42,961 nucleotides of DNA from Parcubacteria group bacterium CG1_02_40_25 (GTDB lineage: Bacteria > Patescibacteriota > Minisyncoccia > Portnoybacterales > CG1-02-40-25), in contig MNWF01000023.1 in NCBI GenBank assembly GCA_001872305.1, positions 1-42,961 on the forward strand, read 5' to 3'. Below, piece after piece: positions 766 through 40,606 of the stretch. The position numbers and the translations under genes are program-made. The notes under the pieces were generated by a model, which worked only from the letters and a program-made list of their open reading frames with translations, was not told the DNA's origin and searched no databases. Position 1 is the first letter of the stretch. Every line of letters starts with the position of its first letter.

Positions 766-845
766 TTGGTTGTTAGGTTAACGGGTTAGCGAGTTGGCGA
801 GTTTTCTAACGAGTTAACGAGTTAACTCGTTAACTCGTTAACCCT
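766..845. repeat. Short-period hairpin type A (8-nt units, GTTAACGA-like)
   Basis: Direct units ggttaacg/ggttagcg/agttggcg, then a perfect 34-nt palindrome at 807-840 (taacgagttaacgagttaactcgttaactcgtta). Ends 2 nt before the pilD ATG. Confidence 0.85.
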
Positions 846-846: not shown

Positions 847-1719
847 ATGTTAGTTTTGTTATTTTTAATTTTTTTATTTGGTTTAATTATTGGCAGTTTT
901 CTTAACGTCGTTATTTTTCGTCTAGGCACTAAAAAATCTGCGCTTAAGGGGCGCTCCTTTTGTCCGCATTGCAAACATACTTTGGCTTGGTATGATTTAA
1001 TCCCGGTTTTAAGTTTTGTTTTTTTAAAAGGCCAGTGCCGTTATTGCGCCAAAAAAATCAGCTGGCAATATCCGTTGGTAGAAATAGCAACCGGATTGTT
1101 GTTTTTGCAAACTTTTGTCTTCGTTAATTTTGTTCGTCATGCTGAATTTATTTCAGCATCCAGTGTCGTGGATTTCGGCTCGGCGACCGAAATGACAACG
1201 CTGATTATTCAATGTGGCCTGTTGTTGGCTGTTGGCAGTTTGTTGATAATCATTTTCGTCTACGATTTAAAACATTATTTAATCCCTGATAAAATTATTT
1301 TTCCAGCCATAGCGATTGCGTTTCTATATCGGATTAGTCTACAGTCTACGGTCTACGGTCTACGGCCAAGCGTAGGTGCTAAGCTGTTAACGCTAACAAC
1401 ATTTTATCCGTTGTTCGCCGCTTTTGGCGCCGCCACCTTTTTTCTGCTATTAGTTTTGATCACCCGCGGTAAAGGTATGGGTATTGGCGATATCAAATTA
1501 GCGTTTTTAATGGGGCTCCTTTTATCTTGGCCGCAAATTACCACCGCCTTATTTATTGCTTTTTTATCTGGCGGCTTGATTGGTTTAGCGTTGATCTTGA
1601 CTCGTAAAAAGAAATTAAAAAGTATGGTGCCCTTTGGCCCTTTTCTGGCCAGTGGCACAATTATCGCGCTTTTTTGGGGAGAAAAAATCATAAACTGGTA
1701 TTGGAAAATACTACTTTAA
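847..1719 (+). CDS. pilD: Prepilin peptidase (A24 aspartic peptidase, PilD-like), carrying two repeat-derived in-frame inserts
   Basis: CPHC...CRYC zinc-type motif, WQYPLVE, GMGIGDIKL aspartyl motif, multiple TM helices. Inserts at 1136-1200 and 1337-1365. Confidence 0.85.
   Translation: MLVLLFLIFLFGLIIGSFLNVVIFRLGTKKSALKGRSFCPHCKHTLAWYDLIPVLSFVFLKGQCRYCAKKISWQYPLVEIATGLLFLQTFVFVNFVRHAEFISASSVVDFGSATEMTTLIIQCGLLLAVGSLLIIIFVYDLKHYLIPDKIIFPAIAIAFLYRISLQSTVYGLRPSVGAKLLTLTTFYPLFAAFGAATFFLLLVLITRGKGMGIGDIKLAFLMGLLLSWPQITTALFIAFLSGGLIGLALILTRKKKLKSMVPFGPFLASGTIIALFWGEKIINWYWKILL
1136..1200. repeat. TGTCAT-element fragment (alpha type) inside the pilD CDS
   Basis: cgtcatgctgaatttatttcagcatccagtg matches the 5' part of the elements at 34342 and 35255. 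Ends in gaaatgacaacg. Translated as RHAEFISASSVVDFGSATEMTT. Confidence 0.7.
1337..1365. repeat. Type B heptamer array (GTCTACA/GTCTACG x4) inside the pilD CDS
   Basis: gtctacagtctacggtctacggtctacgg, translated as LQSTVYGLR. Confidence 0.8.
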
Positions 1720-7080: not shown

Positions 7081-7170
7081 AATCGGTTATTCGGTTAACG
7101 GGTTATTGTGTTAACGGGTTGTTTACTGCAAACTCGTTAACTCGTTAACCCGCTAACTGATTAACTGAAT
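7081..7170. repeat. Short-period hairpin type A between gatC and gatA
   Basis: Left arm ggttattc ggttaacg ggttattg tgttaacg ggtt. Right arm aactcgttaactcgttaacccgctaactgattaactgaa. Confidence 0.85.
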
Positions 7171-8650: not shown

Positions 8651-8720
8651 TCGTTATTTGGTTAGCAGTTAGTCGCAAAAACCTGTTAACCCGTTAATCT
8701 GTTAACTAATTAACTGAATA
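8651..8720. repeat. Short-period hairpin type A after gatA
   Basis: tcgttatttggttagcagttagtcg / aacctgttaacccgttaatctgttaactaattaactgaa. The right arm nearly matches 13186-13215. Confidence 0.75.
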
Positions 8721-9064: not shown

Positions 9065-9136
9065 AGCCGAGTAGAGAAGTAGTATCTCACAAGGCTCATA
9101 ACCTTGGGACCGCAGGTGCAATTCCTGCCTCGGCAA
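9065..9136 (+). tRNA. tRNA with CAU anticodon (Met, initiator or Ile2; identity unresolved)
   Basis: Hand-folded cloverleaf: acceptor agccgag/ctcggca (A1.A72 unpaired), D stem gaga/tctc, anticodon arm caagg-ctCATaa-ccttg, T arm gcagg-tgcaatt-cctgc. Confidence 0.7.
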
Positions 9137-9164
9137 CAAATTAGTTTTTAGTTTAGAGTATGTT

Positions 9165-9236
9165 GGCGGCGTAGCTCAGTGGTAGAGCGAGGGACTCATA
9201 AACCCTAGGCCACAGGTTCAATCCCTGTCGCCGCTA
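9165..9236 (+). tRNA. tRNA with CAU anticodon (Met, initiator or Ile2; identity unresolved)
   Basis: Acceptor ggcggcg/cgccgct, D arm gctc-agtggta-gagc, anticodon loop ctCATaa with GGG/CCC in the stem, T arm acagg-ttcaatc-cctgt. Confidence 0.8.
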
Positions 9237-9351
9237 CGGTTCAAGAACGTAGTATTGGGTTTGTCAGGTCATACGACCTGACGGCCAGTCGTATGACTGG
9301 TCGATCCCTACCTCCGCTACTGATAATAAATCAAAAATTAAATTAGAACAT

Positions 9352-9426
9352 GGTCGCGTGGTGTAGCCCGGTTAACACGTCTCCCTGTCACGGAGAAGAC
9401 CACGGGTTCAAATCCCGTCGCGACCG
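9352..9426 (+). tRNA. tRNA-Asp (GUC)
   Basis: Acceptor ggtcgcg/cgcgacc, anticodon arm tctcc-ctGTCac-ggaga, T arm acggg-ttcaaat-cccgt. Confidence 0.85.
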
Positions 9427-11005: not shown

Positions 11006-11070
11006 GCGGCTTACAGTCTACAGCTTACGGACTACGGCTTACGCTAACCTTAGACTTTAGACCGTAGACA
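11006..11070. repeat. Short-period hairpin type B (7-nt units) between pheS and pheT
   Basis: Left arm cttacag tctacag cttacgg actacgg cttacgc. Right arm ttagact ttagacc gtagaca. Confidence 0.85.
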
Positions 11071-11084
11071 TTTGTTTTTTCATC

Positions 11085-13133: not shown

Positions 13134-13220
13134 TTGTTAACTTTGTTGCTCGGTTAATGCGTTAACGAGTTGTGAGTTAGTTAGAAAACCTGTTAACCCG
13201 TTAACTAATTAACCTTTTAA
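13134..13220. repeat. Short-period hairpin type A between pheT and gyrB
   Basis: Left arm cggttaatgcgttaacgagttgtgagttagtt. Right arm aacctgttaacccgttaactaattaacc. Confidence 0.8.
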
Positions 13221-13229
13221 CGCTATATT

Positions 13230-15209
13230 ATGTCTGAACAAATAAATAAAAACAATAATAACAGCTATACTGCCAGCGATATCTATGTTTTAGAGGGTCT
13301 TGAGCCCGTGCGTAAACGCCCTGGCATGTATATTGGTTCCACTGGCGTTGAGGGCTTGCATCATTTAATTTGGGAAGTAGTGGACAATTCTTTAGATGAA
13401 GCAATTGGCGGTTATTGTGATGAAATTGTGGTAACATTTTCGTCTAATAATCGGATGAGCGTTCAGGATAACGGTCGGGGTATCCCAGTTGATATCCATA
13501 AACAAACCGGAAAATCCGCCTTAGAAACCGTATTAACAACTTTGCACGCGGGCGCTAAGTTTGGGGGGCAGTCATATAAAATTGCTGGTGGTTTGCATGG
13601 CGTGGGCGTGTCAGTCGTTTGCGCGCTTTCGCGTTGGCTCAAAGCAGAGGTACATCGTGATGGCGATATTTATACTCAAGAATATGAATTCGGTCGAGTA
13701 GTTAGCCCAGTAAAAAAAGTTGGTTCTACGGATCGCACTGGGACTACTATTACCTTTGAGCCAGATCCAGAAATTTTTAAAGATGCGAAATTTTCTTGGC
13801 GTCGTATTTTGGATCATTTAAGGCAGCAGTCATATCTAACGAGAGGCGTTAAAATCGTGATTCGTGATGAAAGAAAACAGTCCACGGCAAAAGACGCCGT
13901 GTCCGCGTCGAACGATGGGAATAAGTTTCCGCCTATTTTTAATTATTCTTATACTTTTTACTTTGAAGGCGGCTTGCCTTCCTTTGTGAAATATTTAAAT
14001 CAAGGCGAAAAAATTAAGCACGAAAACATTTTTCACGTGAGCGAGGAAAAAGAAGATATCGCGGTAGAGGTCGCTGTGCAATATACACAAGACATTCAGG
14101 GCAAGGAAGTAAGCTTCGCGAATAATATTCATACGGGCGAAGGCGGGATGCACCTAACGGGATTCCGAACGGCCTTAACGCGAACTCTTAATGACTACGC
14201 GCGTAAAAATAGTTATCTTAAAGAAAATGAGGAAAATCTATCGGGGGATGACGTGCGCGAAGGCCTGACCGCGGTGATTTCTGTAAAAATTAAAGAACCC
14301 CAATTTGAAGGTCAAACTAAAGCAAAGTTGGGCAATCCCGAAGCTCGGGTCGCGGTGGACGCGGTCATGGCCGAAGCATTCGCCAATTATTTAGAGCGTT
14401 TTCCGCAAGATGCCAGGGCCATTATGGAAAAGTGTTTACTGGCAGCTAAAGCAAGGCGGGCGGCTAAAGCAGCTCGAGAAACAGTGATCCGCAAGGGCGT
14501 TTTAGAAGGGTTGGCTTTGCCAGGCAAGCTGGCAGATTGTTCTTCGCGTCGGCCCGAGGAATCTGAAATTTTTATTGTTGAGGGGGATTCGGCTGGTGGC
14601 TCTACTAAACAAGCGCGTGATCGGCGTTTTCAAGCGGTGCTGCCAATTCGTGGCAAAATTTTAAATGTAGAAAAAGCCCGTTTAAATCGAGCGTTGGCGT
14701 CTAAAGAAATTCGGGCATTGGTTATTGCCATGGGCACTGCTATTGCTGAAGAATTTAATATTGCCAAGCTTCGTTATCATCGGGTGATTATTATGACTGA
14801 CGCTGACGTTGACGGCGCCCATATTCGGACATTGCTTTTAACTTTATTTTTTCGCCACTTTGAGCCGTTGATTAAGGTCGGCCATATTTATATTGCGCAA
14901 CCACCACTTTATCGCATCCAGATCGGCAGTCAAGTAGAGTATATGTATGATGATATAGCTAAAGACAAGAAGCTTGCTGGCCTAACGCAGAAATTTAATC
15001 TTCAGCGATATAAGGGTTTGGGCGAAATGAATCCCAATCAACTTTGGGAAACCACGATGGATCCCGCTAAGCGCATTCTTAAGCAGGTGACAGTTGATGA
15101 CGCCGAAGCCGCGGATCACATTTTTGATGTTTTGATGGGGTCGGAAGTTGCTCCGCGCAAAAAATTTATTCAAACGCATGCCAAGACGGTGCAGAATCTC
15201 GACGTATAG
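13230..15209 (+). CDS. gyrB: DNA gyrase subunit B
   Basis: GLEPVRKRPGMYIGST, GLHHLIWEVVDNSLDE, GGLHGVG, EGDSAGGS, PIRGKILNVE, DADVDGAHI. Confidence 0.97.
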   Translation: MSEQINKNNNNSYTASDIYVLEGLEPVRKRPGMYIGSTGVEGLHHLIWEVVDNSLDEAIGGYCDEIVVTFSSNNRMSVQDNGRGIPVDIHKQTGKSALETVLTTLHAGAKFGGQSYKIAGGLHGVGVSVVCALSRWLKAEVHRDGDIYTQEYEFGRVVSPVKKVGSTDRTGTTITFEPDPEIFKDAKFSWRRILDHLRQQSYLTRGVKIVIRDERKQSTAKDAVSASNDGNKFPPIFNYSYTFYFEGGLPSFVKYLNQGEKIKHENIFHVSEEKEDIAVEVAVQYTQDIQGKEVSFANNIHTGEGGMHLTGFRTALTRTLNDYARKNSYLKENEENLSGDDVREGLTAVISVKIKEPQFEGQTKAKLGNPEARVAVDAVMAEAFANYLERFPQDARAIMEKCLLAAKARRAAKAARETVIRKGVLEGLALPGKLADCSSRRPEESEIFIVEGDSAGGSTKQARDRRFQAVLPIRGKILNVEKARLNRALASKEIRALVIAMGTAIAEEFNIAKLRYHRVIIMTDADVDGAHIRTLLLTLFFRHFEPLIKVGHIYIAQPPLYRIQIGSQVEYMYDDIAKDKKLAGLTQKFNLQRYKGLGEMNPNQLWETTMDPAKRILKQVTVDDAEAADHIFDVLMGSEVAPRKKFIQTHAKTVQNLDV

Positions 15210-15211
15210 TG

Positions 15212-15274
15212 GCGTCTACGGTCTACGGCTTACGGCTTACGATGGCCGTTAGCGGTAGACCGTAGACCGTAGAC
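15212..15274. repeat. Short-period hairpin type B after gyrB
   Basis: Left arm gtctacg gtctacg gcttacg gcttacg. Right arm cggtaga ccgtaga ccgtagac. Confidence 0.9.
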
Positions 15275-15290
15275 TAATTACAGTTTCCCC

Positions 15291-15319
15291 TTGCATTTTT
15301 TATCGGACTGTGATATTAT
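15291..15319 (+). promoter_or_regulatory. Extended -10 sigma70-like promoter upstream of secE-nusG
   Basis: TTGCAT (15291-15296), 17-nt spacer ending in TGa, TATTAT (15314-15319). Confidence 0.55.
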
Positions 15320-15362
15320 TTAGATGTTAATTAATTCACAGCCGCGAGGCTGTTTTAAGTAA

Positions 15363-15575
15363 ATGGCGATTTCTCAAAAAGTTATCGGGCTTTTTAAAAA
15401 AATTCCTCAATTCTTAAAAGAAGTTAAGATTGAATTGAAAAAAGTTACTTGGCTAAGCCGTCAGGATGTTTGGCGTTACACTTTGATTGTGGTGTTTTTT
15501 TCTTTGGCAGTAGCCGCTTTTTTGGGGGGCCTTGATATTTTATTTGGGTTTTTAATTAAGAAATTCTTGCTGTAG
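15363..15575 (+). CDS. secE: Preprotein translocase subunit SecE
   Basis: 70 aa with FLKEVKIELKKVTWLSRQDV plus a single C-terminal TM. Conserved position before nusG. Confidence 0.8.
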   Translation: MAISQKVIGLFKKIPQFLKEVKIELKKVTWLSRQDVWRYTLIVVFFSLAVAAFLGGLDILFGFLIKKFLL

Positions 15576-15672
15576 TTTACGGACTACAGTCTACGGTCCG
15601 CGGCACGAAGTTCGTTATTTTTCGGCTGTAGCCCGTAGACCGTTGACCGTTGACTGTAGACTGTTGACCGTT
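15576..15672. repeat. Short-period hairpin type B between secE and nusG
   Basis: Left arm tttacggactacagtctacggtccg. Right arm ctgtagcccgtagaccgttgaccgttgactgtagactgttgaccgt. Confidence 0.85.
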
Positions 15673-15682
15673 AGTATCCATT

Positions 15683-16225
15683 ATGGCTAAACAAATTTCA
15701 CAAGGAAAACAATGGTATGTTTTACACACTTATTCTGGATATGAAGACACAGTGGTACACAATCTCCAACAACGTATCGAGTCTTTGGGTATGGATGATA
15801 AGATTTTTAGCGTGATGGTGCCTAAAGAAAAAAAAATCAAGATTCGCAATGGCAAGCGTAAAGTTGTTGAAGAAAAAATATATCCGGGCTATGTTTTAGT
15901 GGAAATGATTGTAACGGATGATTCTTGGTATGTGGTGCGAAATACCCCGCGGGTTACTGGTTTTGTCGGGTCGGGTACGACACCAGTGCCAGTATCTGAC
16001 GAAGAAATTGCTTTTTTGAAAAAACGAATGGGCGTTGAAGAGCCCAAATACAAGATTGATGTTGTCTTGGGCGACGCGGTTAAAATTACTGACGGGCCGT
16101 TTAAAGATTTTGACGGCAAGGTTTCTGAAATCGATGAGGCCAAAGGGAAAATTAAGGTTTTGGTCAATATTTTTGGCCGAGAAACACCAGTGGAATTGGA
16201 TTTTTTACAAGTTAAAAAAATATAA
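15683..16225 (+). CDS. nusG: Transcription termination/antitermination factor NusG
   Basis: WYVLHTYSGYE NGN start and a C-terminal KOW (GDAVKITDGPFKDFDGKV). Confidence 0.95.
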   Translation: MAKQISQGKQWYVLHTYSGYEDTVVHNLQQRIESLGMDDKIFSVMVPKEKKIKIRNGKRKVVEEKIYPGYVLVEMIVTDDSWYVVRNTPRVTGFVGSGTTPVPVSDEEIAFLKKRMGVEEPKYKIDVVLGDAVKITDGPFKDFDGKVSEIDEAKGKIKVLVNIFGRETPVELDFLQVKKI

Positions 16226-16228
16226 ATA

Positions 16229-16266
16229 TGTCGACCGTCTACCGTCTACGGTCTACAGTCTACTGC
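16229..16266. repeat. Type B left arm, immediately after the nusG stop
   Basis: tgtcgaccgtctaccgtctacggtctacagtctactgc. Confidence 0.8.
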
Positions 16267-16288
16267 TAAATATTTTAGATTTGAGAGA

Positions 16289-16621
16289 TTGCGGGTTTGG
16301 CAGTTATCAAGAGTTTTTGCTTCAAAGATATATAAAATTACTAGGAAATTTCCTAAAGATGAACTTTTTGGTTTAATATCTCAATTAAGACGCGCTGCAA
16401 TTTCAATTTTGTTGAATATAGCAGAAGGCGCTGATCGTAAATCAGATGCAGAATTTAAGAGATTTTTGAGAATCGCATTAACCTCATTGGAGGAAGTTGT
16501 TAGCGGTCTTTATATATCTTTAGATCAGGGTTTTCTTGATAGACAAGAATTTATCTCAGTTTATGAGGATGCAAGTATATTAGCGGCAAAATTGAATTCT
16601 TTGATTAATACTTTGCATTAA
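16289..16621 (+). CDS. Four-helix-bundle protein (23S rRNA intervening-sequence / S23 / Avd-like family)
   Basis: RVWQ...[34 protein letters not shown]...[11 protein letters not shown] matches my memory of the family pattern. No in-frame ATG; TTG at 16289. The family-like residues FRFERL lie upstream, running into the repeat arm. Confidence 0.75.
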
Positions 16622-16636
16622 TATTTTTTTTATCGT

Positions 16637-16669
16637 GGGCTGTAGCCTGTAGACTGTCGACTGTAGACA
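16637..16669. repeat. Type B right arm, immediately before rplK
   Basis: gggctgtagcctgtagactgtcgactgtagaca is the complementary unit type to 16229-16266. The four-helix-bundle gene lies between the two arms. Confidence 0.8.
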
Positions 16670-16674
16670 ATAAG

Positions 16675-17097
16675 ATGAAACCAATTAAAACAGTAATAAA
16701 ACTTCAAATTCCCGCTGCTAAAGCTACCCCAGCTCCTCCTGTCGGCCCTGCTTTGGGTCAACACGGTTTAAATATTCAGGAGTTTTGCATCAAATTTAAT
16801 GATGCTAGCAAAGAGATGGCCGGGGATATTATTCCAGTAGAAATTACGGTCTATGACGATCGGACTTTTGATTTCAAATTGAAAACACCGCCCGCGGCTG
16901 AGCTTTTAAAAAAAGCGGCTGGCGTGGAAAAGGGTTCAGGCGTGCCTAACAAAAAAAAGGCAGGCAAGGTAACAAAGGCGCAGATTCGCGAAATTGCCGA
17001 AAGAAAACTAGTGGATCTAAATACGACTGACATGGATCAGGCAATGCTAATTATTTCCGGTACCGCTCGTTCAATGGGACTAACCGTGATTGATTAA
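16675..17097 (+). CDS. rplK: 50S ribosomal protein L11
   Basis: [33 protein letters not shown] is the L11 hallmark. Confidence 0.95.
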
Positions 17098-17102
17098 TAT
17101 GG

Positions 17103-17200
17103 TTGTCATTGCGAGGAGCTCCGAGGATGACGAGGAGCGACGTGGCAATCTCGCGGGAGGAAGCCAGCAGGCTGATGACCCGCGTGGGAGTTGCGTGGTT
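17103..17200. repeat. TGTCAT element, beta type (gtcattgcgagg...cgtggcaatctcg)
   Basis: ttgtcattgcgaggagc...gagcgacgtggcaatctcgcgggagg... Starts 6 nt after the rplK stop. Related copies at 21588, 32402, 32741 and 36512. Confidence 0.75.
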
Positions 17201-17257
17201 TTTGTGTAGCGACAAAAAAATTCTGAACTCGGCCGTAAGACCTGTTCGGTTTTTTAA

Positions 17258-17286
17258 TTGACATAATTTTTAAGGTCTGTTAGATT
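17258..17286 (+). promoter_or_regulatory. Sigma70-like promoter for tdk-cdd
   Basis: TTGACA (17258-17263), 17-nt spacer, TAGATT (17281-17286). Confidence 0.5.
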
Positions 17287-17393
17287 TAGGGCTTGAGTTC
17301 TTTGATAAGACAATAATTAAATAATGGTTTGTTCTGATAACTATGTAGACTTGTTGGGGCTGTCTTATTTCTAACTAGGAGGAGATGATCGGT

Positions 17394-18080
17394 ATGAACC
17401 GGATAAAAATTTTTGTTGGTCCATGTGCGAGCGGTAAAACTAAGGCTGCCATCCAATTAGCGCGGACTTTAATGTCTGATGGCAAAAAGGTAGCTGCTTT
17501 TAAGGCGTTTATAGATACTCGGGGCGTTGCCGCTCGCTTAAACCATTTAATTTCTCGAGATGGCAAAGATGTTGTGGCAACTCGGGTGAAAAACGCCAGT
17601 CAAATTCTGGGTTTGCTTGATGATAGTTGTGTGTTAATTGATGGCATCTATGGCGTGCCAGAAGTTATCTTGATTGACGAGGCGCAATTTTTTGGCCGGG
17701 ATATTATTAGAGTTGTTCGCCAATTAATGTGTTGGCACAAAAGAATAATCATTACCGGCTTGGCTCGTGATTGTTTTGGCCGGCCATTCAGGTTCGTGCC
17801 ACAATTAATGGCCTTAGCCGAAAGTGGTGATGACATAGCGGTTAAGCAAGCTCTTTGCGCTGTCTGTGGCCAATTAGGAGCTACTCAGATTCAGAGATTG
17901 ATTGATGGCCAACCAGCTTCGTTGGGTAAACAAATTATCGTGGGCGAAGATCATGACTTTGGCAAGTTTGCCCAAGCAAAGATTACTTATGAACCGCGAT
18001 GCAATCTGCATCATCAGATCGCGTCAACATCGTGGTGGCGAAAACTATATTTCAGTATCCTTTATCGTTTGCAGAATTAG
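17394..18080 (+). CDS. tdk: Thymidine kinase (TK1 type)
   Basis: P-loop GPCASGKT, LIDEAQFF, GLARDCFGRPF, CAVCG...PRC zinc-site residues. The ORF track starts at 17385, but SD aggagg (17377-17382) is better spaced for the ATG at 17394. Confidence 0.8.
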   Translation: MNRIKIFVGPCASGKTKAAIQLARTLMSDGKKVAAFKAFIDTRGVAARLNHLISRDGKDVVATRVKNASQILGLLDDSCVLIDGIYGVPEVILIDEAQFFGRDIIRVVRQLMCWHKRIIITGLARDCFGRPFRFVPQLMALAESGDDIAVKQALCAVCGQLGATQIQRLIDGQPASLGKQIIVGEDHDFGKFAQAKITYEPRCNLHHQIASTSWWRKLYFSILYRLQN

Positions 18081-18092
18081 GAGGTAATTGAT

Positions 18093-18503
18093 ATGTTGCC
18101 AGATTCTTATGCTGTTATTCTCGCGGCGCGGGCAATGGAAGCGACTAAAAAGGCCTACGCGCCATATTCAAATTTTCCAGTAGGCGCGGCCGTGGCGCAT
18201 ACAAGTAAGATTGCTATTGGCTGTAATGTGGAAAATCAGTCTTTCGGTTTAACAATGTGCGCTGAAAGAGTGGCCATTTATTCCGCGATAACGACTGGCT
18301 GGCTTAACAAGACTACAAAAATTACTGCGTTGGCGGTATACGCGGTGAACCAGGATTACGTAAAACCATGCGGCGCTTGCTTGCAAGTAATTTCGGAATT
18401 TGCCGATGAGAATACGGTAATCCTTTTAATGGATAGATCTAATGGGCCTATTAAACAGTTAAAGTTTGCGGACTTATTGCCGCAGGCATTCTCTTTAGAA
18501 TAA
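18093..18503 (+). CDS. cdd: Cytidine deaminase
   Basis: CAERVAI and PCGACLQVISEF zinc-binding motifs. SD aggagg at 18078-18083 overlaps the tdk stop. Confidence 0.85.
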   Translation: MLPDSYAVILAARAMEATKKAYAPYSNFPVGAAVAHTSKIAIGCNVENQSFGLTMCAERVAIYSAITTGWLNKTTKITALAVYAVNQDYVKPCGACLQVISEFADENTVILLMDRSNGPIKQLKFADLLPQAFSLE

Positions 18504-18518
18504 AAGCAATACCAGACA

Positions 18519-18552
18519 AAGGCTCTCGTAATTATAAGAGAGCCTTTTTTTA
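18519..18552 (+). terminator. Rho-independent terminator after cdd
   Basis: Stem ggctctc (18521-18527) / gagagcc (18538-18544) followed by a T7 run. Confidence 0.8.
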
Positions 18553-18649
18553 TTGAATAAAATATGATAAGATTATGTGTGAGGCCTAAAATCAGACCTT
18601 GCGCGGAGTTTGGTGCGGGGCACGATCTTACAAATAGTGAATAATTTTT

Positions 18650-20254
18650 ATGAAATATTTTCCGACAATTGGTTTGGAAATTCACGTGGAATTAAAAACG
18701 CAGGCAAAAATGTTTTGTCAATGCGCTAATAATTTTGACGAAGCAAGCCCCAATGTTAATATCTGTCCGATTTGTATGGGGCAGCCGGGCGCCTTGCCAG
18801 CTGGCGTGAATGAAAAAGCAGCGGAGCAAACTCTAAAGATTTGTCTGGCTTTACGTTGTTCGATTTGTGAGGCGCCACAGTTTTGGCGTAAGAATTATTT
18901 TTATCCAGATTTGCCCAAGGGTTATCAGATTACTTCGCAAAAATCGCCATTTGGCGAGCGTGGTTTTGTGGAAACAAATGAAGGCCGAGTGGGTATTCAT
19001 CATATCCACCTTGAAGAAGATACGGCCCGTTTGTTGCATCCCGCGGGAGCATCTTATTCTTTAATTGATTTTAATCGGTCGGGCGTGCCGCTTCTGGAAT
19101 TAGTGAGCGAGCCAGATATCCATTCTAGCCAACAAGCGCGGGAATTTTGTCAAAAGCTACAGTTAATTTTTCGTTATTTGGGCGCCTCAGACGCGGATAT
19201 GGAAAAAGGGCAAATGAGATGCGAGGTGAACATTAGCCTACAGTCTACAGCTCACAGTCTACAGTCTACCGACAACAGCTTACAGTCAACTGTCGGCCGT
19301 AGGCTGTCCATTGTCGACCGTAGACTGTTGACCGTAGACCGGCTAGGCACCAAAGTGGAAATAAAAAATCTTAATTCTTTTAGGTCAGTTGAAAAAGCAA
19401 TTGATTACGAAATTAAACGGCAGGGCGATTTATTAGATCGCGGCGAGAAAATTATTCAGGAAACGCGCGGTTGGCATGATGCTAAGCAAATTACTTTTTC
19501 CCAGCGTGTTAAAGAAGAGGCGCATGATTATCGTTATTTTCCAGAGCCGGATTTACCGCCGTTGGATTTAACCAGTAAAAATTCACTCTGGGTGATTGAT
19601 GATATTAAAAGGCAATTGCCGGAATTGCCTGAGCAGCGTTTAACGCGTCTGCAAAAGGAACATGGGTTGCCCGTTGGCCAGGCAGAGGTCTTGGTGAGTA
19701 ATTATAAACTTGGCGATTATTTTGAAAATGTTATTTCAGAACTCCGTGCTTGGTTAAAAACTGGCATAGAGTCGATAGTGCTGAGTGGTAAAGATTTGCG
19801 CGTTGAGCAGGATGCGTCGTCGCAAACAACAGTAAACCCGATCAGATTGGCGGCCAATTATTTAATTACAGAAATTCCCAAATTATTGGTTTTGTATCAA
19901 AAAAATATGGCGGATTTAAAAATTACGCCGGAAAATTTTGCTGAATTTATTGCCTTAGTTTGTCAAGATAAAGTATCGTCTTCTGGCGCGCAGTCGTTGT
20001 TGGCAGAAATGTTTTTGACTGGCGGCGACCCATCAAATATTATTGAAGCCAAGGGGCTGGCCCAAGTCTCGGATCAATCGGCCTTGGAGCAAGCAGTTTT
20101 GGAGGTTATAAAAAATAATCCTCAGCCAGCGGCGGATTACCAGTCGGGCAATATTAATGTTTTACAATTTTTAGTCGGTCAAGTGATGAGGCAAACTCAA
20201 GGTCAGGCAAATCCGAAAATAGTACAGGAGATATTAAAACAAAAACTTATTTAG
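18650..20254 (+). CDS. gatB: Asp/Glu-tRNA(Asn/Gln) amidotransferase subunit B with a ~35-aa repeat-derived insert
   Basis: IGLEIHVEL, CPICMGQPGALP, HLEEDTA, KNLNSFRSVEKAIDYE, C-terminal GatB/YqeY tail. Insert at 19237-19340. Confidence 0.95.
   Translation: MKYFPTIGLEIHVELKTQAKMFCQCANNFDEASPNVNICPICMGQPGALPAGVNEKAAEQTLKICLALRCSICEAPQFWRKNYFYPDLPKGYQITSQKSPFGERGFVETNEGRVGIHHIHLEEDTARLLHPAGASYSLIDFNRSGVPLLELVSEPDIHSSQQAREFCQKLQLIFRYLGASDADMEKGQMRCEVNISLQSTAHSLQSTDNSLQSTVGRRLSIVDRRLLTVDRLGTKVEIKNLNSFRSVEKAIDYEIKRQGDLLDRGEKIIQETRGWHDAKQITFSQRVKEEAHDYRYFPEPDLPPLDLTSKNSLWVIDDIKRQLPELPEQRLTRLQKEHGLPVGQAEVLVSNYKLGDYFENVISELRAWLKTGIESIVLSGKDLRVEQDASSQTTVNPIRLAANYLITEIPKLLVLYQKNMADLKITPENFAEFIALVCQDKVSSSGAQSLLAEMFLTGGDPSNIIEAKGLAQVSDQSALEQAVLEVIKNNPQPAADYQSGNINVLQFLVGQVMRQTQGQANPKIVQEILKQKLI
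19237..19340. repeat. Complete type B short-period hairpin inside the gatB CDS
   Basis: Left arm cctacag tctacag ctcacag tctacag tctaccg. Right arm ccgtaggctgtccattgtcgaccgtagactgttgaccgtagacc. Translated as SLQSTAHSLQSTDNSLQSTVGRRLSIVDRRLLTVDR. Confidence 0.9.
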
Positions 20255-20760: not shown

Positions 20761-21842
20761 AAATCTTTAACTAATTTTTCTACTTCGGCATATTTTGTAA
20801 CCCAATGAATGCGCGGGTCGCGCTTGAACCAAGTCATTTGCCGCTTGGCATATTGCTTGGTGTGCTGTTTAATGAGTTTGATGGCCTGTTCTAAAGAAAT
20901 TTTATTCTGTAGGTACTGGATAATTTCTTGATAGCCAATACCGGAAAAGGCCGGCAATTTTAGTGTGGTTTTGTTGCTATTGTTATCCCCGCAAATGCGG
21001 GGATCCATTGTTGAGATTGTCGATTTTAGACGTGGATTCCCATACCTCACGGGGTATCTTCGACTTTCGTGGGAATGACAATCAAGATATTGTTTTTTTA
21101 ATATTTTTACCTCTTCAATCAATCCCTGTTTAATCATATCATTAACCCGTGAATCAATTTTTCGTTCTAATTCTTTTTTCGGCACGCTAATGCCTATTTG
21201 CAGGGTATTAAATAGCGGTTTGTCCTTTTGGCGCAGTTGTGAAAACGGCAGGTCAGTTTTTAGGCAAACTTCTAAAGCGCGAATTAGGCGACGCCGATTT
21301 TTAGCGTCAATTTTTTTAGCGCAAATTGGATCTAATTTTTTGAGACGACTAAATAATTGTTCGTTAGTTTGCAATTCTAATTTTGTTCTAATTTTTACAT
21401 CAGGCGGCACTTCGGGAATAATTAAATTATCAACTATGGCTTGGATATAAAGTCCAGTGCCGCCGACTAAAAATGGAATTTGTGGCTGGCGAGATTTAAT
21501 TATTCGCTTGACTTTTGCCTGATATTGTGCTACGTTATAGTCGTCATTTGGATTGACAATATCAATCATAAAGTGGGGAATGTGAATGTCATCGCGAGGA
21601 GGAAGCCGTAGCGAAGCGGAGGCTGACGACGTGGCAATCTCTTGATCGACTTTGCGCTCAAGATTGTTTTGTTGGAGGGGCAGATTTTTCGCTGTTCCGA
21701 TATCCATTTGGCGGTAAATTTGTCGTGAATCAGCGGAAATTATGTATCCGCTGACTTTTTTGGCTAAACGTAAACCCCAACTACTTTTTCCTGAAGCGGT
21801 TGGTCCGAGAATCACAATAATTTTTGGTAAATTTTTTTGCAT
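20748..21842 (-). CDS. miaA: tRNA dimethylallyltransferase with two repeat-derived in-frame inserts
   Basis: GPTASGKS P-loop, IISADSRQIYRQMDIGTAK, GGTGLYI, RRLIRALE. 364 aa, versus about 300-315 aa as I recall for typical MiaA. Confidence 0.9.
   Translation of the reverse strand: MQKNLPKIIVILGPTASGKSSWGLRLAKKVSGYIISADSRQIYRQMDIGTAKNLPLQQNNLERKVDQEIATSSASASLRLPPRDDIHIPHFMIDIVNPNDDYNVAQYQAKVKRIIKSRQPQIPFLVGGTGLYIQAIVDNLIIPEVPPDVKIRTKLELQTNEQLFSRLKKLDPICAKKIDAKNRRRLIRALEVCLKTDLPFSQLRQKDKPLFNTLQIGISVPKKELERKIDSRVNDMIKQGLIEEVKILKKQYLDCHSHESRRYPVRYGNPRLKSTISTMDPRICGDNNSNKTTLKLPAFSGIGYQEIIQYLQNKISLEQAIKLIKQHTKQYAKRQMTWFKRDPRIHWVTKYAEVEKLVKDFLEK
20984..21083. repeat. Composite palindromic element inside the miaA CDS
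   Basis: atccccgcaaatgcggggat palindrome, then ggattcccatacctcacggggtatcttcgactttcgtgggaatgacaatc. On the gene strand it is translated as DCHSHESRRYPVRYGNPRLKSTISTMDPRICGDNN. Confidence 0.75.
21588..21641. repeat. Beta-type TGTCAT element inside the miaA CDS (antisense to the gene)
   Basis: gtcatcgcgaggaggaagccgtagcgaagcggaggctgacgacgtggcaatctc. Read on the minus strand as EIATSSASASLRLPPRDD. Confidence 0.8.
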
Positions 21843-22255: not shown

Positions 22256-23341
22256 AATTTGTTCTCGCCGTTTTTTCTCAGCCATGGGAATATTATCAGC
22301 CAGGCGGCTGGCAATGGTGCCTTGACGTGGCGAATATTTACTAATGTAGGCCTTAAAAAAGCCTACTTTTTTTACAACGTCAATAGTTTCTTGAAATTGT
22401 GTTTCAGTTTCGCCCGGGAAGCCGACAATAATATCTGTAGTAATTTTAACACTAGGAATAATTAATTTAATATTTTTGACTAAATCTAAATAGTGTTGTT
22501 TGGTATAATGGCGGTTCATGGCTTTTAAAATAGTGTTATCGCCTGATTGGAAAGGCAGATGAATTTCTTTAATGACTTTATCGCATTGGGCAATTGTTCG
22601 GATTAATTTGTCTGACATGTCTTTGGGGTGATTAGTCAGGAAGCGAATTTTAAAATTACCAGGGATTTTGTTGATAATTTTTAGTAGGTCAGCAAAATCT
22701 ATTTGTGTAATATGGTTATTGGGTTCACGGGTTAACGAGTTAACGAGTTGCGGGTTATTTGCTCCTTGGCTTCCGAAGTATGAATTCACGTTTTGTCCCA
22801 ATAGCGCAATCTCTTGGTGCCTTGCGGCTACTAATGTTTTAATCTCATTGATGATTTCTCGCGCTGGTCGGCAACGCTCGCGCCCCTTGGTCAACGGCAC
22901 GGCGCAGTAAGAGCACCAGTTATTACAGCCGCGCATAATGGGGACGTAGTAAGCACTGTCATTCTGAACTCGTTTCAGGATCTGCGTGGCGCGTTTAGTG
23001 GATCCCGAAACAAGTTCGGGATGACTACTGGCAGGGTTTATCGGTAGTTGTTCAATTCGTCTAATTTTGACGCCAAGATTAGTAAATTTATTTTTGTCTT
23101 TTTGTAAAATACAACCAATCAAAATTATCCGCGCCTTTTTATCCGCGGATTTTATTTTTTTAACTTTAGCATACAAGCGATCCACCGCGCTTTGGCGCAC
23201 CGAACAAGCATTAAAAAATAACAAATCAGCCTCGCTAACATCGCGAGCTTGGCTCCAACCGCGGCTATCTAAATATTGTCCTAAGCGTTCGCTGTCTGAT
23301 TCATTCATCTGACAGCCGAAAGTAATAATTTGGTATTTCAT
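22238..23341 (-). CDS. Radical-SAM methylthiotransferase (MiaB/RimO family), no TRAM domain, two repeat-derived inserts
   Basis: MKYQIITFGCQMNESDSE N-terminal MTTase domain and the CNNWCSYC radical-SAM cluster. I use the ATG at 23341; the ORF-track start at 23419 adds 26 non-conserved residues. Confidence 0.85.
   Translation of the reverse strand: MKYQIITFGCQMNESDSERLGQYLDSRGWSQARDVSEADLLFFNACSVRQSAVDRLYAKVKKIKSADKKARIILIGCILQKDKNKFTNLGVKIRRIEQLPINPASSHPELVSGSTKRATQILKRVQNDSAYYVPIMRGCNNWCSYCAVPLTKGRERCRPAREIINEIKTLVAARHQEIALLGQNVNSYFGSQGANNPQLVNSLTREPNNHITQIDFADLLKIINKIPGNFKIRFLTNHPKDMSDKLIRTIAQCDKVIKEIHLPFQSGDNTILKAMNRHYTKQHYLDLVKNIKLIIPSVKITTDIIVGFPGETETQFQETIDVVKKVGFFKAYISKYSPRQGTIASRLADNIPMAEKKRREQILRQII
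22714..22759. repeat. Type A unit array (one arm only) inside the MTTase CDS
   Basis: ggttattgggttcacgggttaacgagttaacgagttgcgggttatt. Gene-strand translation is NNPQLVNSLTREPNN. Confidence 0.8.
22957..23024. repeat. TGTCAT-type palindromic element inside the MTTase CDS
   Basis: gtcattctgaactcgtttcaggatc...ggatcccgaaacaagttcgggatgac. It lies on the N-terminal side of the CNNWCSYC cluster motif. Confidence 0.75.
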
Positions 23342-39829: not shown

Positions 39830-39830
39830 T

Positions 39831-39916: not shown

Positions 39917-40606
39917 ATGGTGAAAGATTTTTCTCTATTAGAAAAGAAGTTGGGCGTTAAGTTTAATAATCAAGATTTACTAAGGCAGGCGTTAGTCCAC
40001 CGTTCTTATTTAAATGAAAACCCAGATTGTGGTTTGGAGCATAACGAAAGAATGGAGTTTTTGGGGGACGCGGTGTTGGAGTTAGTGACCACAGAATATT
40101 TATTTAAAAATTATCCCAATCCCGAAGGCGAATTAACCGGCTATCGTTCGGCCTTAGTCAATAGTCATATGCTTTCTGAAATCGCCGTAGAACTTGGGAT
40201 TAATGATTTTTTGCTGTTGTCCCGTGGTGAAGCTCGGGATACGGGTAAGGCGCGAGAATGTATTTTGGCGAACGCTATGGAAGCAATTATTGGCGCGATG
40301 TATTTAGACGCGGAGTATAAGGTATCCGCGGATTTTATCACGCGCCATGTTTTAAAAGAACTGCCGCGCGTGCTTGAAGACAAGCTGTATGTTGATGCTA
40401 AAAGCGCTTTTCAAGAACAAGCGCAAGATCGGGTGGGCGTCACGCCGGTTTATGAGGTTTTAAAAGAGTGGGGGCCTGACCACGCTAAGCAATTTGAGAT
40501 CGGCGTATTTTTAGACAAAGAAATGGTGGCAACTGGTCAAGGTCTATCCAAGCAAGAAGCCCAACAAGAAGCAGCTCGTCGAGCGTTAGAAGTTAAAAAA
40601 TGGTAA
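39917..40606 (+). CDS. rnc: Ribonuclease III
   Basis: NERMEFLGDAVLELV catalytic signature and a C-terminal dsRBD (AKSAFQE...GQGLSKQEAQQEAARRAL). Confidence 0.95.
   Translation: MVKDFSLLEKKLGVKFNNQDLLRQALVHRSYLNENPDCGLEHNERMEFLGDAVLELVTTEYLFKNYPNPEGELTGYRSALVNSHMLSEIAVELGINDFLLLSRGEARDTGKARECILANAMEAIIGAMYLDAEYKVSADFITRHVLKELPRVLEDKLYVDAKSAFQEQAQDRVGVTPVYEVLKEWGPDHAKQFEIGVFLDKEMVATGQGLSKQEAQQEAARRALEVKKW

What the first reader, a model, noticed from the sequence alone, without database searches (positions are those of the whole stretch)
19237..19340. A complete two-armed heptamer hairpin is embedded in gatB and translated as a 7-aa-periodic peptide
About 104 nt inside gatB has the same architecture as the intergenic type B hairpins at 11006, 15212 and 15576. 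A left array of CTACAGT-type units faces a right array of ACCGTAG-type units. It replaces the short loop that, from my memory of GatB (CDANISLRPxGxxxxGTKxELKNLNSF), lies between NISL and GTK-EIKNLNSF. Because 3 x 7 nt equals 7 codons, the peptide shows a 7-residue period (SLQSTxx). A stable hairpin of roughly 30 bp in the middle of an essential mRNA should impede ribosomes or attract RNase III, unless it is unfolded or removed.
Basis: partly seen in the sequence, partly recalled or inferred. Interest (0 to 1): 0.75.

Follow-up and report, generated by a model that had tools for sequence, protein, structure and literature searches.

The report
Heptamer-repeat hairpin translated inside gatB
A 105-base palindromic repeat made of fifteen 7-base units, from a repeat family scattered through this tiny (Parcubacteria) bacterium's genome, sits in frame inside the essential gatB gene and lengthens one loop of the enzyme by 27 amino acids; repeat DNA absorbed into a protein is a known phenomenon, seen here in a new lineage and a new form.

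Summary
Window 19238-19342 is 15 heptamers in one register (105 nt, 35 codons). The left arm is (CTACAGT)n and the right arm its complement. As RNA it folds at about -50 kcal/mol (z about -6). It lies inside an otherwise intact gatB, replaces a loop that has 11 residues in almost all other bacteria sampled, and is open only in the gatB frame. It belongs to a local family: the two-unit motif occurs 24 times against 0.03 expected, at six sites. Two independent assemblies carry the same 105 bases. The closest relatives (82-83% identical GatB) lack it but hold other tandem repeats at the same codon positions. In all, 35 of the 119 best Patescibacteria GatB hits have an expanded loop there. One family member, between nusG and rplK, carries a PF05635 "23S rRNA intervening-sequence protein" gene in its loop. 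Homologous genes in other Parcubacteria are bounded by the same heptamer arrays, so the gatB copy looks like a gene-less miniature of that element. Best reading: a translated, tolerated repeat insertion in a flexible loop, analogous to Rickettsia palindromic elements and intragenic REPs. No transcript or protein data were available. Cleavage of the hairpin by RNase III was not tested, and whether the element arrived by insertion or grew in place is unresolved.

The parts
18650..20254 (+). gatB coding sequence (534 aa), host gene of the element
   Evidence: ORF. Pfam GatB_N plus GatB_Yqey. E = 1.8e-124 to T. maritima GatB (3al0_B). Residues invariant across 115 homologues are intact.
19238..19342 (+). 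The element: 15 heptamers in one register (105 nt, 35 codons), encoding LQSTAHSLQSTDNSLQSTVGRRLSIVDRRLLTVDR
   Evidence: Only the gatB frame is free of stops among the six frames.
19238..19287 (+). Left arm, (CTACAGT)-type units, equivalent to (GTCTACR)n
   Evidence: TRF period 7, 7.1 copies. Paired to the right arm in the MFE fold.
19288..19294 (+). Apical loop of the predicted hairpin
   Evidence: Dot-bracket structure. Coordinates are my own count, taking 19233 as position 1.
19295..19342 (+). Right arm, (YGTAGAC)-type units. The units at 19305-19311 (TGTCCAT) and 19326-19332 (TGTTGAC) are the two in the phase where a canonical TAG would be in frame, and both lack TAG.
   Evidence: Codon phase computed from the gene start at 18650.
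11006..11075 (+). Sibling hairpin between pheS and pheT; degenerate, weak fold (z = -0.7)
   Evidence: gene names.
15212..15274 (+). Sibling hairpin between gyrB and secE (dG -41.9, z = -6.3)
15576..15671 (+). Sibling hairpin between secE and nusG (dG -39.4, z = -4.0)
16230..16668 (+). Long family member. Inverted heptamer arrays 16230-16263 and 16640-16668 pair as a terminal stem around a PF05635 (23S_rRNA_IVP) ORF at 16289-16621. Inserted between nusG and rplK.
   Evidence: Pfam E = 5.3e-34. Fold -125.2 kcal/mol, z = -5.5, with the arrays paired. In L088, L087 and L090 nusG and rplK lie 1-6 nt apart with no gene between them.
1334..1400 (+). Second intragenic copy, in frame in the prepilin peptidase gene (847-1719), peptide ISLQSTVYGLRPSVGAK. 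The right arm has decayed and there is no significant fold (z = +0.8).
39917..40606 (+). rnc (RNase III) gene: the enzyme that could cut such stems is encoded here
   Evidence: Pfam Ribonucleas_3_3 (6.9e-37) plus dsrm.

Best explanation
The segment is one copy of a genome-specific family of palindromic repeats whose two arms are tandem heptamers, (GTCTACN)n facing (NGTAGAC)n. It occupies the DNA for the turn between two predicted beta-strands in the GatB cradle domain. Because it is exactly 15 units long (a multiple of three) and has no stop codon in the gatB frame, it is transcribed and translated with the rest of the gene. This adds 27 residues of probably flexible loop that the enzyme tolerates.

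No function needs to be assumed. It is selfish or slippage-prone DNA that survived because this site is permissive. The mRNA hairpin is presumed to be melted by translating ribosomes.

Shown: the anatomy, family membership, reading-frame compatibility, absence from close relatives, reproducibility across assemblies, and the loop position. Inferred: translation through the element, tolerance by the enzyme, and ribosomal unwinding.

The family appears to be the gene-less miniature form of an element that carries a PF05635 (IVS protein) gene between the same heptamer stems. Whether the gatB copy arrived by insertion or grew in place from a few seed units is unresolved.
For: 1. Family membership. 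There are 24 motif matches against 0.03 expected, at six sites, and the gatB copy shares 11-mers with all siblings.

2. Frame compatibility is not trivial. Only 1 of 6 frames of the gatB copy is open, and it is the host frame. Among the three intergenic family copies 1 of 18 frames is open. Among all seven intergenic two-armed hairpins in the window, 1 of 42 is open. A perfect (CGTAGAC)n right arm puts TAG in frame every 21 nt. The two units in that phase, at 19305 and 19326 (21 nt apart), read TCC and TTG instead.

3. The host gene is intact. Residues invariant across 115 GatB homologues are present. The AlphaFold model has mean pLDDT 87.6, and only residues about 200-232 (block means 48-59) and 378-393 are low. 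The insert lies between strands 189-199 and 236-241.

4. The insert is lineage-specific. GatB at 82-83% identity (P0002, P0003) and at 67% (P0004) lacks it.

5. It is not an artefact. The same protein is recorded on 26 contigs under three NCBI accessions. An independent ENA assembly is identical over 14,033 nt except for 5 SNPs, none in the element.

6. The site is permissive. 35 of the 119 best Patescibacteria GatB hits have more than 12 residues here, up to 59. Outside Patescibacteria every locus measured has the canonical length. In other genomes the loop carries that genome's own repeat. L087 has a GTCATTCCGAGCG palindrome (dG -45) with a sibling in an intergenic region. L088 has (AAATCCC)n, also present in its pheT.

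7. The same genome has further in-frame repeat inserts, in pilD, thrS and miaA.

8. Link to the gene-carrying form. The PF05635 ORF at 16289-16621 is bounded by pairing arrays of the same units. Homologous ORFs in L211, L214 and L215 are bounded by the same or a near-identical heptamer family. 25 of 77 close homologues begin with MTTDYRLQTTA-type peptides, which are translated (GACTACN)n arrays. Arrays of 3 or more family units are absent from 11 related loci (about 162 kb) without a stand-alone PF05635 gene and present in all four loci that have one.

9. Precedent exists. Rickettsia palindromic elements and intragenic REPs are in-frame palindromic inserts of 20-80 residues in housekeeping genes (PMC10969869, PMC3733652).
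Against: - No transcript or protein data were available, so translation is inferred from reading-frame integrity only.
- The hairpin is still among the most stable in the family (-50 kcal/mol, z about -6). This is not what simple selection against mRNA structure would produce. It is compatible with a young insertion but also with a retained RNA function.
- All available copies of the element are identical, so there is no population variation from which to read selection.
- No target-site duplication, transposase or other mobility signature was found in the window.
- The three closest relatives carry different tandem repeats at the same codons, and L002 keeps a single TCACAGT unit there. This fits growth in place at least as well as insertion.
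- Low pLDDT shows only that the model is uninformative there, not that the loop is exposed or harmless.
- The loop's distance from GatA and from tRNA was not measured.
Confidence: 0.72

Rival explanations
1. Growth in place rather than insertion. A few heptamer units already present in the loop-coding DNA expanded by replication slippage. The inverted arm was then created or perfected by fold-back template switching. Only changes of three units (21 nt) survived. The resemblance to the dispersed family reflects the same mutational process or gene conversion, not transposition. The element would still be translated and tolerated, so this rival concerns origin only.
For: The whole element is one uninterrupted 7-nt register. 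No target duplication or transposase was found in the window. Relatives have different tandem arrays at the same codons: (AAATCYC)x4 in L002, (AAATCA)x4.5 in L005 and (AATGCAR)x4 in L006. L002 retains one TCACAGT unit at the junction. In pilD the window has four near-perfect GTCTACR units plus exactly 21 extra nt where L216 has degenerate units. This shows in-place homogenisation and expansion of an older array. Published work on Nostoc trnL intron P6b hairpins describes length change by copy number of heptanucleotide repeats that base-pair into a hairpin (PMC3488679).
Against: The units are those of a family with at least five other sites in the window, and the same units bound a gene-carrying element in several genomes at different loci, which points to mobility. 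Pure slippage does not explain why the second arm is the exact complement family.
Confidence: 0.3
2. The hairpin is a functional cis-acting RNA element. It would be an RNase III (or other nuclease) target, or a translational pause site, that sets GatB expression. The stem would then be maintained by selection and not merely tolerated.
For: The stem is still very stable despite coding constraints. rnc is encoded in the window and is itself flanked by two-armed repeat hairpins. Stems of the same unit family bound a PF05635 gene, the architecture of 23S rRNA intervening sequences that RNase III excises in Coxiella (PMC4990558). Correia elements in Neisseria mRNAs are cut by RNase III at their inverted repeats (PMC10969869).
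Against: It is absent from GatB of the closest relatives, whose loops encode non-hairpin repeats with fold z of +0.4 to -1.7. There is no conservation and no covariation data. Cleavage inside the coding region would destroy the message. The other intragenic copy (pilD) has lost its fold, z = +0.8.
Confidence: 0.1
3. The segment is removed before the protein functions, either excised from the mRNA and the ends rejoined, or removed from the polypeptide. The mature GatB would then have a short loop.
For: The only support is the analogy with intervening sequences in rRNA (PMC4990558, PMC11270868).
Against: rRNA intervening sequences are cut without re-ligation (PMC11270868). If the segment were removed as RNA there would be no reason for it to be exactly 35 codons, stop-free in only the host frame, and mutated at the two in-phase TAG positions. 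There are no intron or intein features, and Rfam finds nothing in 15100-19500 at E up to 1.
Confidence: 0.03
4. It is an assembly artefact or this gatB is a decaying pseudogene.
For: Repeats are a known cause of misassembly. Only short-read assemblies were available.
Against: Two assemblies from different projects agree base for base across all hairpins. The exact protein is recorded on 26 contigs. The ORF is intact with all invariant residues. gatA lies in the same window.
Confidence: 0.02

Closest known systems
Rickettsia palindromic elements (RPEs)
   Same: A dispersed family of palindromic repeats, many copies inserted in frame in unrelated housekeeping genes, translated as extra peptide segments judged compatible with the protein fold (review PMC10969869).
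   Different: RPEs are about 150 bp with a conserved family sequence and are not built from tandem short units. The lineage differs (Alphaproteobacteria versus Patescibacteria). No sequence relationship was tested or is expected.
Intragenic REPs (GTAG- and CGTC-tagged palindromic repeats; Di Nocera et al. 2013, PMC3733652)
   Same: Short stem-loop repeats, mostly just downstream of ORFs and sometimes inside known genes, where they encode 20-30 (up to 82) residues. The right-arm unit here contains GTAG.
   Different: REPs have 5-13 bp stems with one unpaired GTAG tag and are linked to RAYT transposases. Here GTAG is paired and repeated every 7 nt, the stems total about 43 bp, and no RAYT is in the window.
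23S rRNA intervening sequences carrying an S23p/PF05635 ORF (Coxiella, Leptospira; also rRNA insertions of CPR bacteria)
   Same: The long sibling at 16230-16668 has the same layout and size: about 440 nt, a roughly 30-bp terminal stem, and a PF05635 ORF in the loop. The Coxiella IVS is 428 nt with a 28-bp stem and has tandem heptamers whose number varies between strains (PMC4990558). PF05635 ORFs occur in CPR rRNA insertions (PMC11270868).
   Different: The copies here lie in mRNA operon spacers and inside protein-coding genes, not in rRNA. The gatB copy has no ORF. RNase III excision is untested.
Heptanucleotide-repeat hairpins of cyanobacteria (Nostoc tRNA-Leu intron P6b; STRR repeats)
   Same: Degenerate tandem heptamers on both sides that base-pair into a hairpin embedded in a functional gene, with length variation by copy number (PMC3488679). 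This is the closest match in architecture.
   Different: Those sit in a self-splicing intron or in intergenic DNA, so they are not translated. The phylum and units differ. That STRR units resemble these (CAACAGT) is my recollection only and was not tested.
Tandem repeats creating new disordered protein regions in Borg elements
   Same: Rapidly evolving, genome-specific tandem repeats inside ORFs that never break the frame and add low-complexity peptide (PMC9879509).
   Different: Borg repeat units inside ORFs have lengths divisible by three and are direct repeats. Here the unit is 7 nt, so the frame is kept only by unit numbers that are multiples of three, and the array is palindromic.
Correia (NEMIS) elements of Neisseria
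   Same: Inverted-repeat elements co-transcribed into mRNAs whose hairpins are cut by RNase III (PMC10969869). This is a model for what the stem could do at the RNA level.
   Different: The RNase III cases summarised in that review are stated at the level of element-containing transcripts. The same review also notes strain-dependent disruption of coding sequences by Correia elements. Correia elements have defined terminal repeats and target duplications, neither of which is seen here.

Membership tests
In-frame intragenic palindromic repeat (RPE / intragenic REP kind) | Member of a multi-copy palindromic repeat family in the same genome | tested here: met
   24 motif matches against 0.03 expected, at six sites. 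11-mers shared with all siblings.
In-frame intragenic palindromic repeat (RPE / intragenic REP kind) | Lies inside a recognisable gene without breaking the frame, and is absent from orthologues | tested here: met
   35 codons with only the host frame open. Absent from GatB at 82-83% identity. The canonical loop is 11 residues.
In-frame intragenic palindromic repeat (RPE / intragenic REP kind) | Located where the protein fold tolerates it (surface loop) | tested here: inconclusive
   It lies between predicted strands 189-199 and 236-241 with pLDDT 48-59, and the same site is expanded in 35 of 119 homologues. Exposure and distance to GatA or tRNA were not measured.
In-frame intragenic palindromic repeat (RPE / intragenic REP kind) | Actually translated | not testable with these tools
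   Needs proteomics. Inferred from frame integrity and the missing in-phase TAGs.
REP / REPIN mobilised by a RAYT (Y1 transposase) | Associated RAYT gene flanked by the repeats | tested here: not met
   No transposase domain in any window ORF of 100 aa or more. The rest of the genome was not seen. The Y1_Tnp in relative L002 is flanked by unrelated AGTTCCGAAC hairpins.
REP / REPIN mobilised by a RAYT (Y1 transposase) | Short (5-13 bp) stem with one unpaired terminal GTAG tag | tested here: not met
   GTAG recurs every 7 nt inside the paired arm, and the stem totals about 43 bp. Criteria from PMC3733652.
rRNA-type intervening sequence (IVS) with or without PF05635 ORF | Terminal inverted repeats forming a long stem around a loop that may hold a PF05635 ORF | tested here: met
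   Met for the sibling at 16230-16668 and for homologues in L211, L214 and L215. The gatB copy has the stem only.
rRNA-type intervening sequence (IVS) with or without PF05635 ORF | Located in a helix of 23S (or 16S) rRNA | tested here: not met
   All six copies are in mRNA spacers or coding sequence. No rRNA is in the window.
rRNA-type intervening sequence (IVS) with or without PF05635 ORF | Excised by RNase III | not testable with these tools
   rnc is present, but cleavage needs RNA end mapping or an in vitro assay.
MITE (miniature derivative of an autonomous element) | Shares termini with a longer gene-carrying element in the same genome | tested here: met
   The same heptamer units form the arms of the PF05635 element and of the gene-less hairpins. 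Sub-terminal similarity is weak.
MITE (miniature derivative of an autonomous element) | Target-site duplication and a transposase in the parent element | tested here: not met
   No direct repeats flank any copy. PF05635 is not a known transposase.
Cyanobacterial heptanucleotide-repeat hairpins (trnL intron P6b / STRR) | Both arms are degenerate tandem heptamers that pair with each other | tested here: met
   Architecture as described in PMC3488679.
Cyanobacterial heptanucleotide-repeat hairpins (trnL intron P6b / STRR) | Sequence or phylogenetic relationship to the cyanobacterial repeats | not tested
   No cyanobacterial sequences were compared. The resemblance is one of design only.

The most novel reading that the evidence does not exclude
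The heptamer hairpins are miniature copies of a previously undescribed mobile, IVS-like element of Parcubacteria: a PF05635 four-helix-bundle gene bounded by heptamer-array stems. This element colonises not only rRNA but also operon spacers and even coding sequences. The stems, including the one in gatB mRNA, would be RNase III substrates, so gatB would carry an 'intervening sequence' inside an essential message that competes between translation and cleavage. The PF05635 protein, whose function has been unknown since its discovery in rRNA intervening sequences, would be the factor that binds or propagates the heptamer arrays.
Probability: 0.15. Interest if true: 0.8.

Novelty: new variant of a known kind. 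Interest (0 to 1): 0.55.

Why it matters
In-frame palindromic repeats in housekeeping genes are known from Rickettsia and from REP-rich Proteobacteria. I found no description of them in the Candidate Phyla Radiation in the library searched.

Three points go beyond a new example.

1. The unit is 7 nt, so the reading frame is preserved only by a rule of three units. The complement arm also has to lose every third TAG. This makes a very clean natural test of selection for translation.

2. One GatB loop is invariant in length in every non-Patescibacteria GatB locus sampled, yet it is expanded in 35 of the 119 best-scoring Patescibacteria hits, each time with that genome's own repeat. That offers a tractable system for studying how repeat DNA becomes protein sequence in reduced genomes.

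3. The link between these stems and PF05635 genes outside rRNA gives a concrete lead on the biology of a protein family, and of intervening sequences, that have lacked a function for three decades.

For annotation, it warns that low-complexity loops in CPR core proteins can be repeat-derived.

Tried and rejected
- Genome-collection scan for GatB relatives. It served as a cross-phylum control for loop length.
- Metagenome scan for GTCTACRGTCTACRGTCTAC. The 120 loci returned were mostly high-GC, unrelated, one-armed three-unit matches, and only 4 were two-armed. The pattern is too unspecific, and the scan stopped before reaching this organism.
- Rfam, whole window at gathering threshold and 15100-19500 at E up to 1. 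It found only three tRNAs and nothing on any hairpin.
- Transposase or RAYT in the window: none found. The Y1 transposase next to gatB in relative L002 is flanked by different hairpins.
- MITE-style sub-terminal homology between the PF05635 element and the gene-less hairpins: only a weak T-run/GCTGTAGCC resemblance, which I did not rely on.
- Target-site motif. Both intragenic copies abut ATTAG and several intergenic ones abut a TAG. There are too few cases, and the result is confounded by stop codons and by the repeat unit itself.
- TIGR or CRISPR-like array, intron, intein: considered and rejected. There are no spacers, no associated genes and no splice or intein motifs, and the frame evidence argues for translation.
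- Mapping the loop onto GatCAB-tRNA coordinates: not possible with the outputs available, which give sequence and secondary structure only.
- Literature searches for CPR/Patescibacteria palindromic in-frame insertions found nothing directly relevant.
Full report
**What is in the sequence.** gatB is the ORF 18650-20254 and encodes 534 aa. It has both GatB Pfam domains and matches solved GatB structures at E = 1e-124 to 1e-73. Inside it, Tandem Repeats Finder reports a period-7 array at 19238-19287 (7.1 copies, CTACAGT) and a complementary array at 19312-19339. Read from 19238 in one register, the segment is 15 consecutive heptamers: CTACAGT CTACAGC TCACAGT CTACAGT CTACCGA CAACAGC TTACAGT CAACTGT CGGCCGT AGGCTGT CCATTGT CGACCGT AGACTGT TGACCGT AGACCGG. 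That is 105 nt or exactly 35 codons, encoding LQSTAHSLQSTDNSLQSTVGRRLSIVDRRLLTVDR. Both halves of the peptide are 7-periodic: SLQSTxx, then VDRRLxx.

**The hairpin.** The arms are 70-78% complementary. As RNA, 19225-19352 folds at -54.8 kcal/mol with z = -6.3, and none of 200 shuffles folds as well. The core 19233-19347 folds at -50.2 kcal/mol with z = -6.0 and about 43 pairs by my count.

**It is more than chance and it belongs to a family.** GTCTACNGTCTAC with at most 1 mismatch occurs 24 times in the window against 0.03 expected. All matches fall at six sites:
- 1337, inside a prepilin-peptidase gene;
- 11006-11075, between pheS and pheT;
- 15212-15274, between gyrB and secE;
- 15576-15671, between secE and nusG;
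- 16230-16668, between nusG and rplK;
- the gatB copy.

The gatB copy shares 11-mers with all the others. In every case the left arm is (GTCTACN)n and the right arm (NGTAGAC)n. Fold stabilities of the siblings range from -41.9 kcal/mol (z = -6.3) down to no significant fold. The window also holds other two-armed tandem-repeat hairpins built from different units: octamers GTTAACGA, and heptamers AAGAATA and AAATCTC. Two-armed repeat hairpins are therefore a general habit of this genome.

**It replaces a loop that is otherwise fixed in length.** Solved GatB structures have 5-9 residues between NIS(V/I) and the (G)T(K/R)VE(I/V)KN motif. In 75 GatB loci from species-representative genomes, 56 have exactly 11 residues between the columns of S196 and K235. 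These 56 include all the non-Patescibacteria measured. This protein has 38. The AlphaFold model built on 115 homologues is confident overall (pLDDT 87.6, pTM 0.84). The insert lies between strands 189-199 and 236-241 and has block-mean pLDDT of 48-59. Residues invariant across the 115 homologues are intact.

**It is real.** The window's exact protein (P0121) is recorded on 26 contigs and under three NCBI accessions from Parcubacteria MAGs. Two further cluster members carry the identical insert. An independently assembled ENA contig is identical to the window over 14,033 nt except for 5 SNPs, none of them in any hairpin.

**It is lineage-specific, but the site is a hot spot.** The nearest GatB proteins lack the element: P0002 at 83% identity, P0003 at 82% and P0004 at 67%. 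Their DNA aligns cleanly up to ...AAYATYAGY and from CTAGGCACC onward. In between they carry other tandem repeats:
- (AAATCYC)x4 preceded by one TCACAGT unit, in L002;
- (AAATCA)x4.5, in L005;
- (AATGCAR)x4, in L006.

None of these forms a significant hairpin. Among the 119 best-scoring Patescibacteria GatB hits, 35 have an expanded loop of 15-59 residues by the same measure that gives 12 for the canonical loop, and the peptides are unrelated and low in complexity.

Where I could read the DNA, the insert is that genome's own repeat. In L087 it is a GTCATTCCGAGCG...CCTCAGAATGAC palindrome (-45 kcal/mol) whose sibling lies in an intergenic region 3.7 kb away. In L088 it is (AAATCCC)n, which also sits in frame in pheT of the same contig. 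In L089 it is three 21-nt units, each a small hairpin. The window itself has further in-frame repeat inserts. thrS has a 16-residue insert from (TCAAAGC)n. miaA has a 39-residue insert containing a GGATCCCCGC/GCGGGGAT hairpin. The prepilin peptidase has a type-B array.

**Evidence that it is translated rather than removed.** Of the six reading frames through the element, five contain 1-4 stops. Only the gatB frame is open. This is not a property of the family. Of the 18 frames through the three intergenic type-B copies, one is open. Of the 42 frames through all seven intergenic hairpins, one is open. A perfect right arm (CGTAGAC)n necessarily places TAG in frame once every three units. In gatB the two units that fall in that phase, at 19305-19311 and 19326-19332 (exactly 21 nt apart), read TGTCCAT and TGTTGAC. 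The in-frame codons are therefore TCC and TTG, while three of the four other units keep TAG. TTG variants also occur in intergenic copies, so this is a filter and not proof of adaptation. It is nonetheless what translation requires and what RNA-level removal would not require. The other intragenic copy, in pilD, is likewise open only in its host frame.

**An older copy shows the likely fate.** The pilD array is shared in degenerate form by relatives at 60-82% identity (ISLQSTAY, ISLRLTAY, VSSQLTAY). In L216, which comes from the same sample as L002, the DNA reads CTCACAG CTTACGG CCTACAG TCAACGG. In the window it is four near-perfect GTCTACR units plus exactly 21 extra nt that include a right-arm unit. 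The pilD copy no longer folds, z = +0.8. Arrays therefore persist for long periods inside genes, change in steps of three units, and can lose the hairpin. The gatB copy is the young, still-palindromic stage.

**Link to PF05635 elements.** The sibling at 16230-16668 is not a simple hairpin. Its two heptamer arrays (16230-16263 and 16640-16668) pair as a terminal stem in a -125 kcal/mol fold with z = -5.5. The stem encloses an ORF that matches Pfam PF05635, '23S rRNA intervening sequence protein', over its full length at E = 5e-34. It sits between nusG and rplK, which lie 1-6 nt apart with no gene between them in L088, L087 and L090.

Homologous ORFs in other Parcubacteria are bounded in the same way:
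- L214, also nusG-ORF-rplK: ATGACTACCGTCTAC... / ...GTAGACGGTAGTCGGTAAGCGG;
- L211, in a pilus operon: GACTACAGCT... / CAGTAGCCGGTAGTCAGTAAGC;
- L215, between gyrB and secE: CTTACCGACGACCGTCAACAGACTACCGC / GCGGTAAGCTGTTGACAGT;
- L215, a second ORF between nusG and rplK, with a CTAGCSA variant.

Of the 77 closest homologues with a recognisable core start, 25 begin with MTTDYRLQTTA-like extensions, which are translations of (GACTACN)n. Gene-less two-armed hairpins of the same units accompany these genes in L211 and L214. By contrast, 11 related loci totalling about 162 kb without a stand-alone PF05635 gene have no array of 3 or more family units.

Published work gives the parallel. The Coxiella 23S rRNA intervening sequence is 428 nt with a 28-bp terminal stem and a PF05635-family ORF (S23p). 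It has tandem heptamers whose number varies between strains, and it is excised by RNase III (PMC4990558). PF05635 ORFs and many short ORF-less insertions occur in CPR rRNA genes (PMC11270868). The gatB element therefore looks like the ORF-less form of an IVS-like element that in these genomes also lives outside rRNA. I found no transposase in the window and no target duplication. How the family spreads is unknown.

**How it most likely works.** Shown: the anatomy, the family, the frame, the loop position, reproducibility across assemblies, and lineage specificity. Inferred: the element is transcribed and translated with gatB, ribosomes melt the stem, and the enzyme tolerates 27 extra residues on a flexible turn. 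This is the 'selfish DNA in protein-coding genes' situation known from Rickettsia palindromic elements (PMC10969869) and from intragenic REPs (PMC3733652). The form is new: a palindrome of heptamers that must obey a three-unit rule. The nearest architectural match is the heptanucleotide-repeat P6b hairpin in the Nostoc tRNA-Leu intron (PMC3488679).

Origin by insertion and origin by growth in place (slippage plus fold-back templating) cannot be separated with the present data, and both probably contribute. A regulatory role through RNase III is possible, because rnc is at 39917-40606 and is itself flanked by repeat hairpins. It has no comparative support, because relatives lack any hairpin at this site. 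Removal from the mRNA is disfavoured by the frame evidence, and an assembly artefact is excluded by the independent assemblies.

**Verdict.** The phenomenon is a new variant of a known kind. It is moderately interesting in itself. The GatB hot spot and the PF05635 connection are the parts most worth following up.

Noticed in passing
window 16230-16668: A PF05635 (23S rRNA intervening-sequence protein) gene bounded by pairing heptamer arrays is inserted between nusG and rplK, outside any rRNA. The same arrangement occurs in L214 and L215, and 25 of 77 close homologues start with a translated heptamer array (MTTDYRLQTTA...).
   Followed up: partly
window 39828-39912 and 40614-40732: The RNase III gene (39917-40606) is immediately preceded by an (AAGAATA)n/(TATTCTT)n hairpin (-29 kcal/mol, z = -6.1) and followed by an (AAATYWC)n/(ATTTGAG)n hairpin. 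This recalls rnc autoregulation through a 5' stem in E. coli (my recollection, untested).
   Followed up: no
window 777-842, 7085-7166, 8680-8713, 13187-13221, 22723-22749: A second hairpin family is built from octamers (GTTAACGA / TCGTTAAC). The first two copies fold at -39.8 and -44 kcal/mol (z = -8 and -10). The unit carries TAA on both strands, so this family cannot be read through in any frame, and all copies seen are intergenic.
   Followed up: partly
window 25385-25432 (thrS, minus strand): A 16-residue in-frame insert, SKLKAQSPKPQLKTQS, made of (TCAAAGC)n heptamers. It is absent from seven ThrRS homologues in related loci.
   Followed up: partly
window 20946-21062 (miaA, minus strand): A 39-residue in-frame insert containing a GGATCCCCGC...GCGGGGAT hairpin. 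It is absent from at least three quarters of the nine MiaA homologues compared.
   Followed up: no
window 1334-1400 (prepilin peptidase 847-1719); L216 10462-10489: An older in-frame type-B array is shared in degenerate form with relatives. The window copy has homogenised units plus exactly 21 extra nt, and the hairpin is lost.
   Followed up: yes
window 39228-39339: A 31-nt-armed palindrome, GTCGTCCTGAGGGCGAAGCC.../...GCCTCAGGATGAC, lies just after rpmF. It is of the same class as the element that fills the GatB loop in L087 and as palindromes in L002 and L216. The rpmF ORF is 105 aa against a 56-residue L32 domain.
   Followed up: no
window 19781-19828 (GatB residues 378-393): A second low-confidence insertion (pLDDT about 41) in the helical domain of GatB. 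It is shared with P0002 and P0003 but absent from most homologues, and its DNA was not examined for repeats.
   Followed up: no
window 19228-19240 and 1328-1337: Both intragenic type-B copies begin directly after ATTAG, and several intergenic copies begin after a TAG. This could be a target preference or part of the element. There are too few cases, and the pattern is confounded by stop codons.
   Followed up: no
L002 4509-5090: The closest relative carries a Y1 (IS200/IS605-type) transposase two genes from gatB, flanked by AGTTCCGAAC/GTTCGGAACT hairpins (REPtron-like). These are unrelated to the heptamer family.
   Followed up: partly
L087 4719-6156: A diversity-generating retroelement core (bAvd plus reverse transcriptase) sits between gyrB and secE in a syntenic Parcubacteria contig. 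That is the same spacer that holds a type-B hairpin in the window and a PF05635 gene in L215.
   Followed up: no
window 9065-9426: A cluster of three tRNA genes. These are the only Rfam matches in the window.
   Followed up: no
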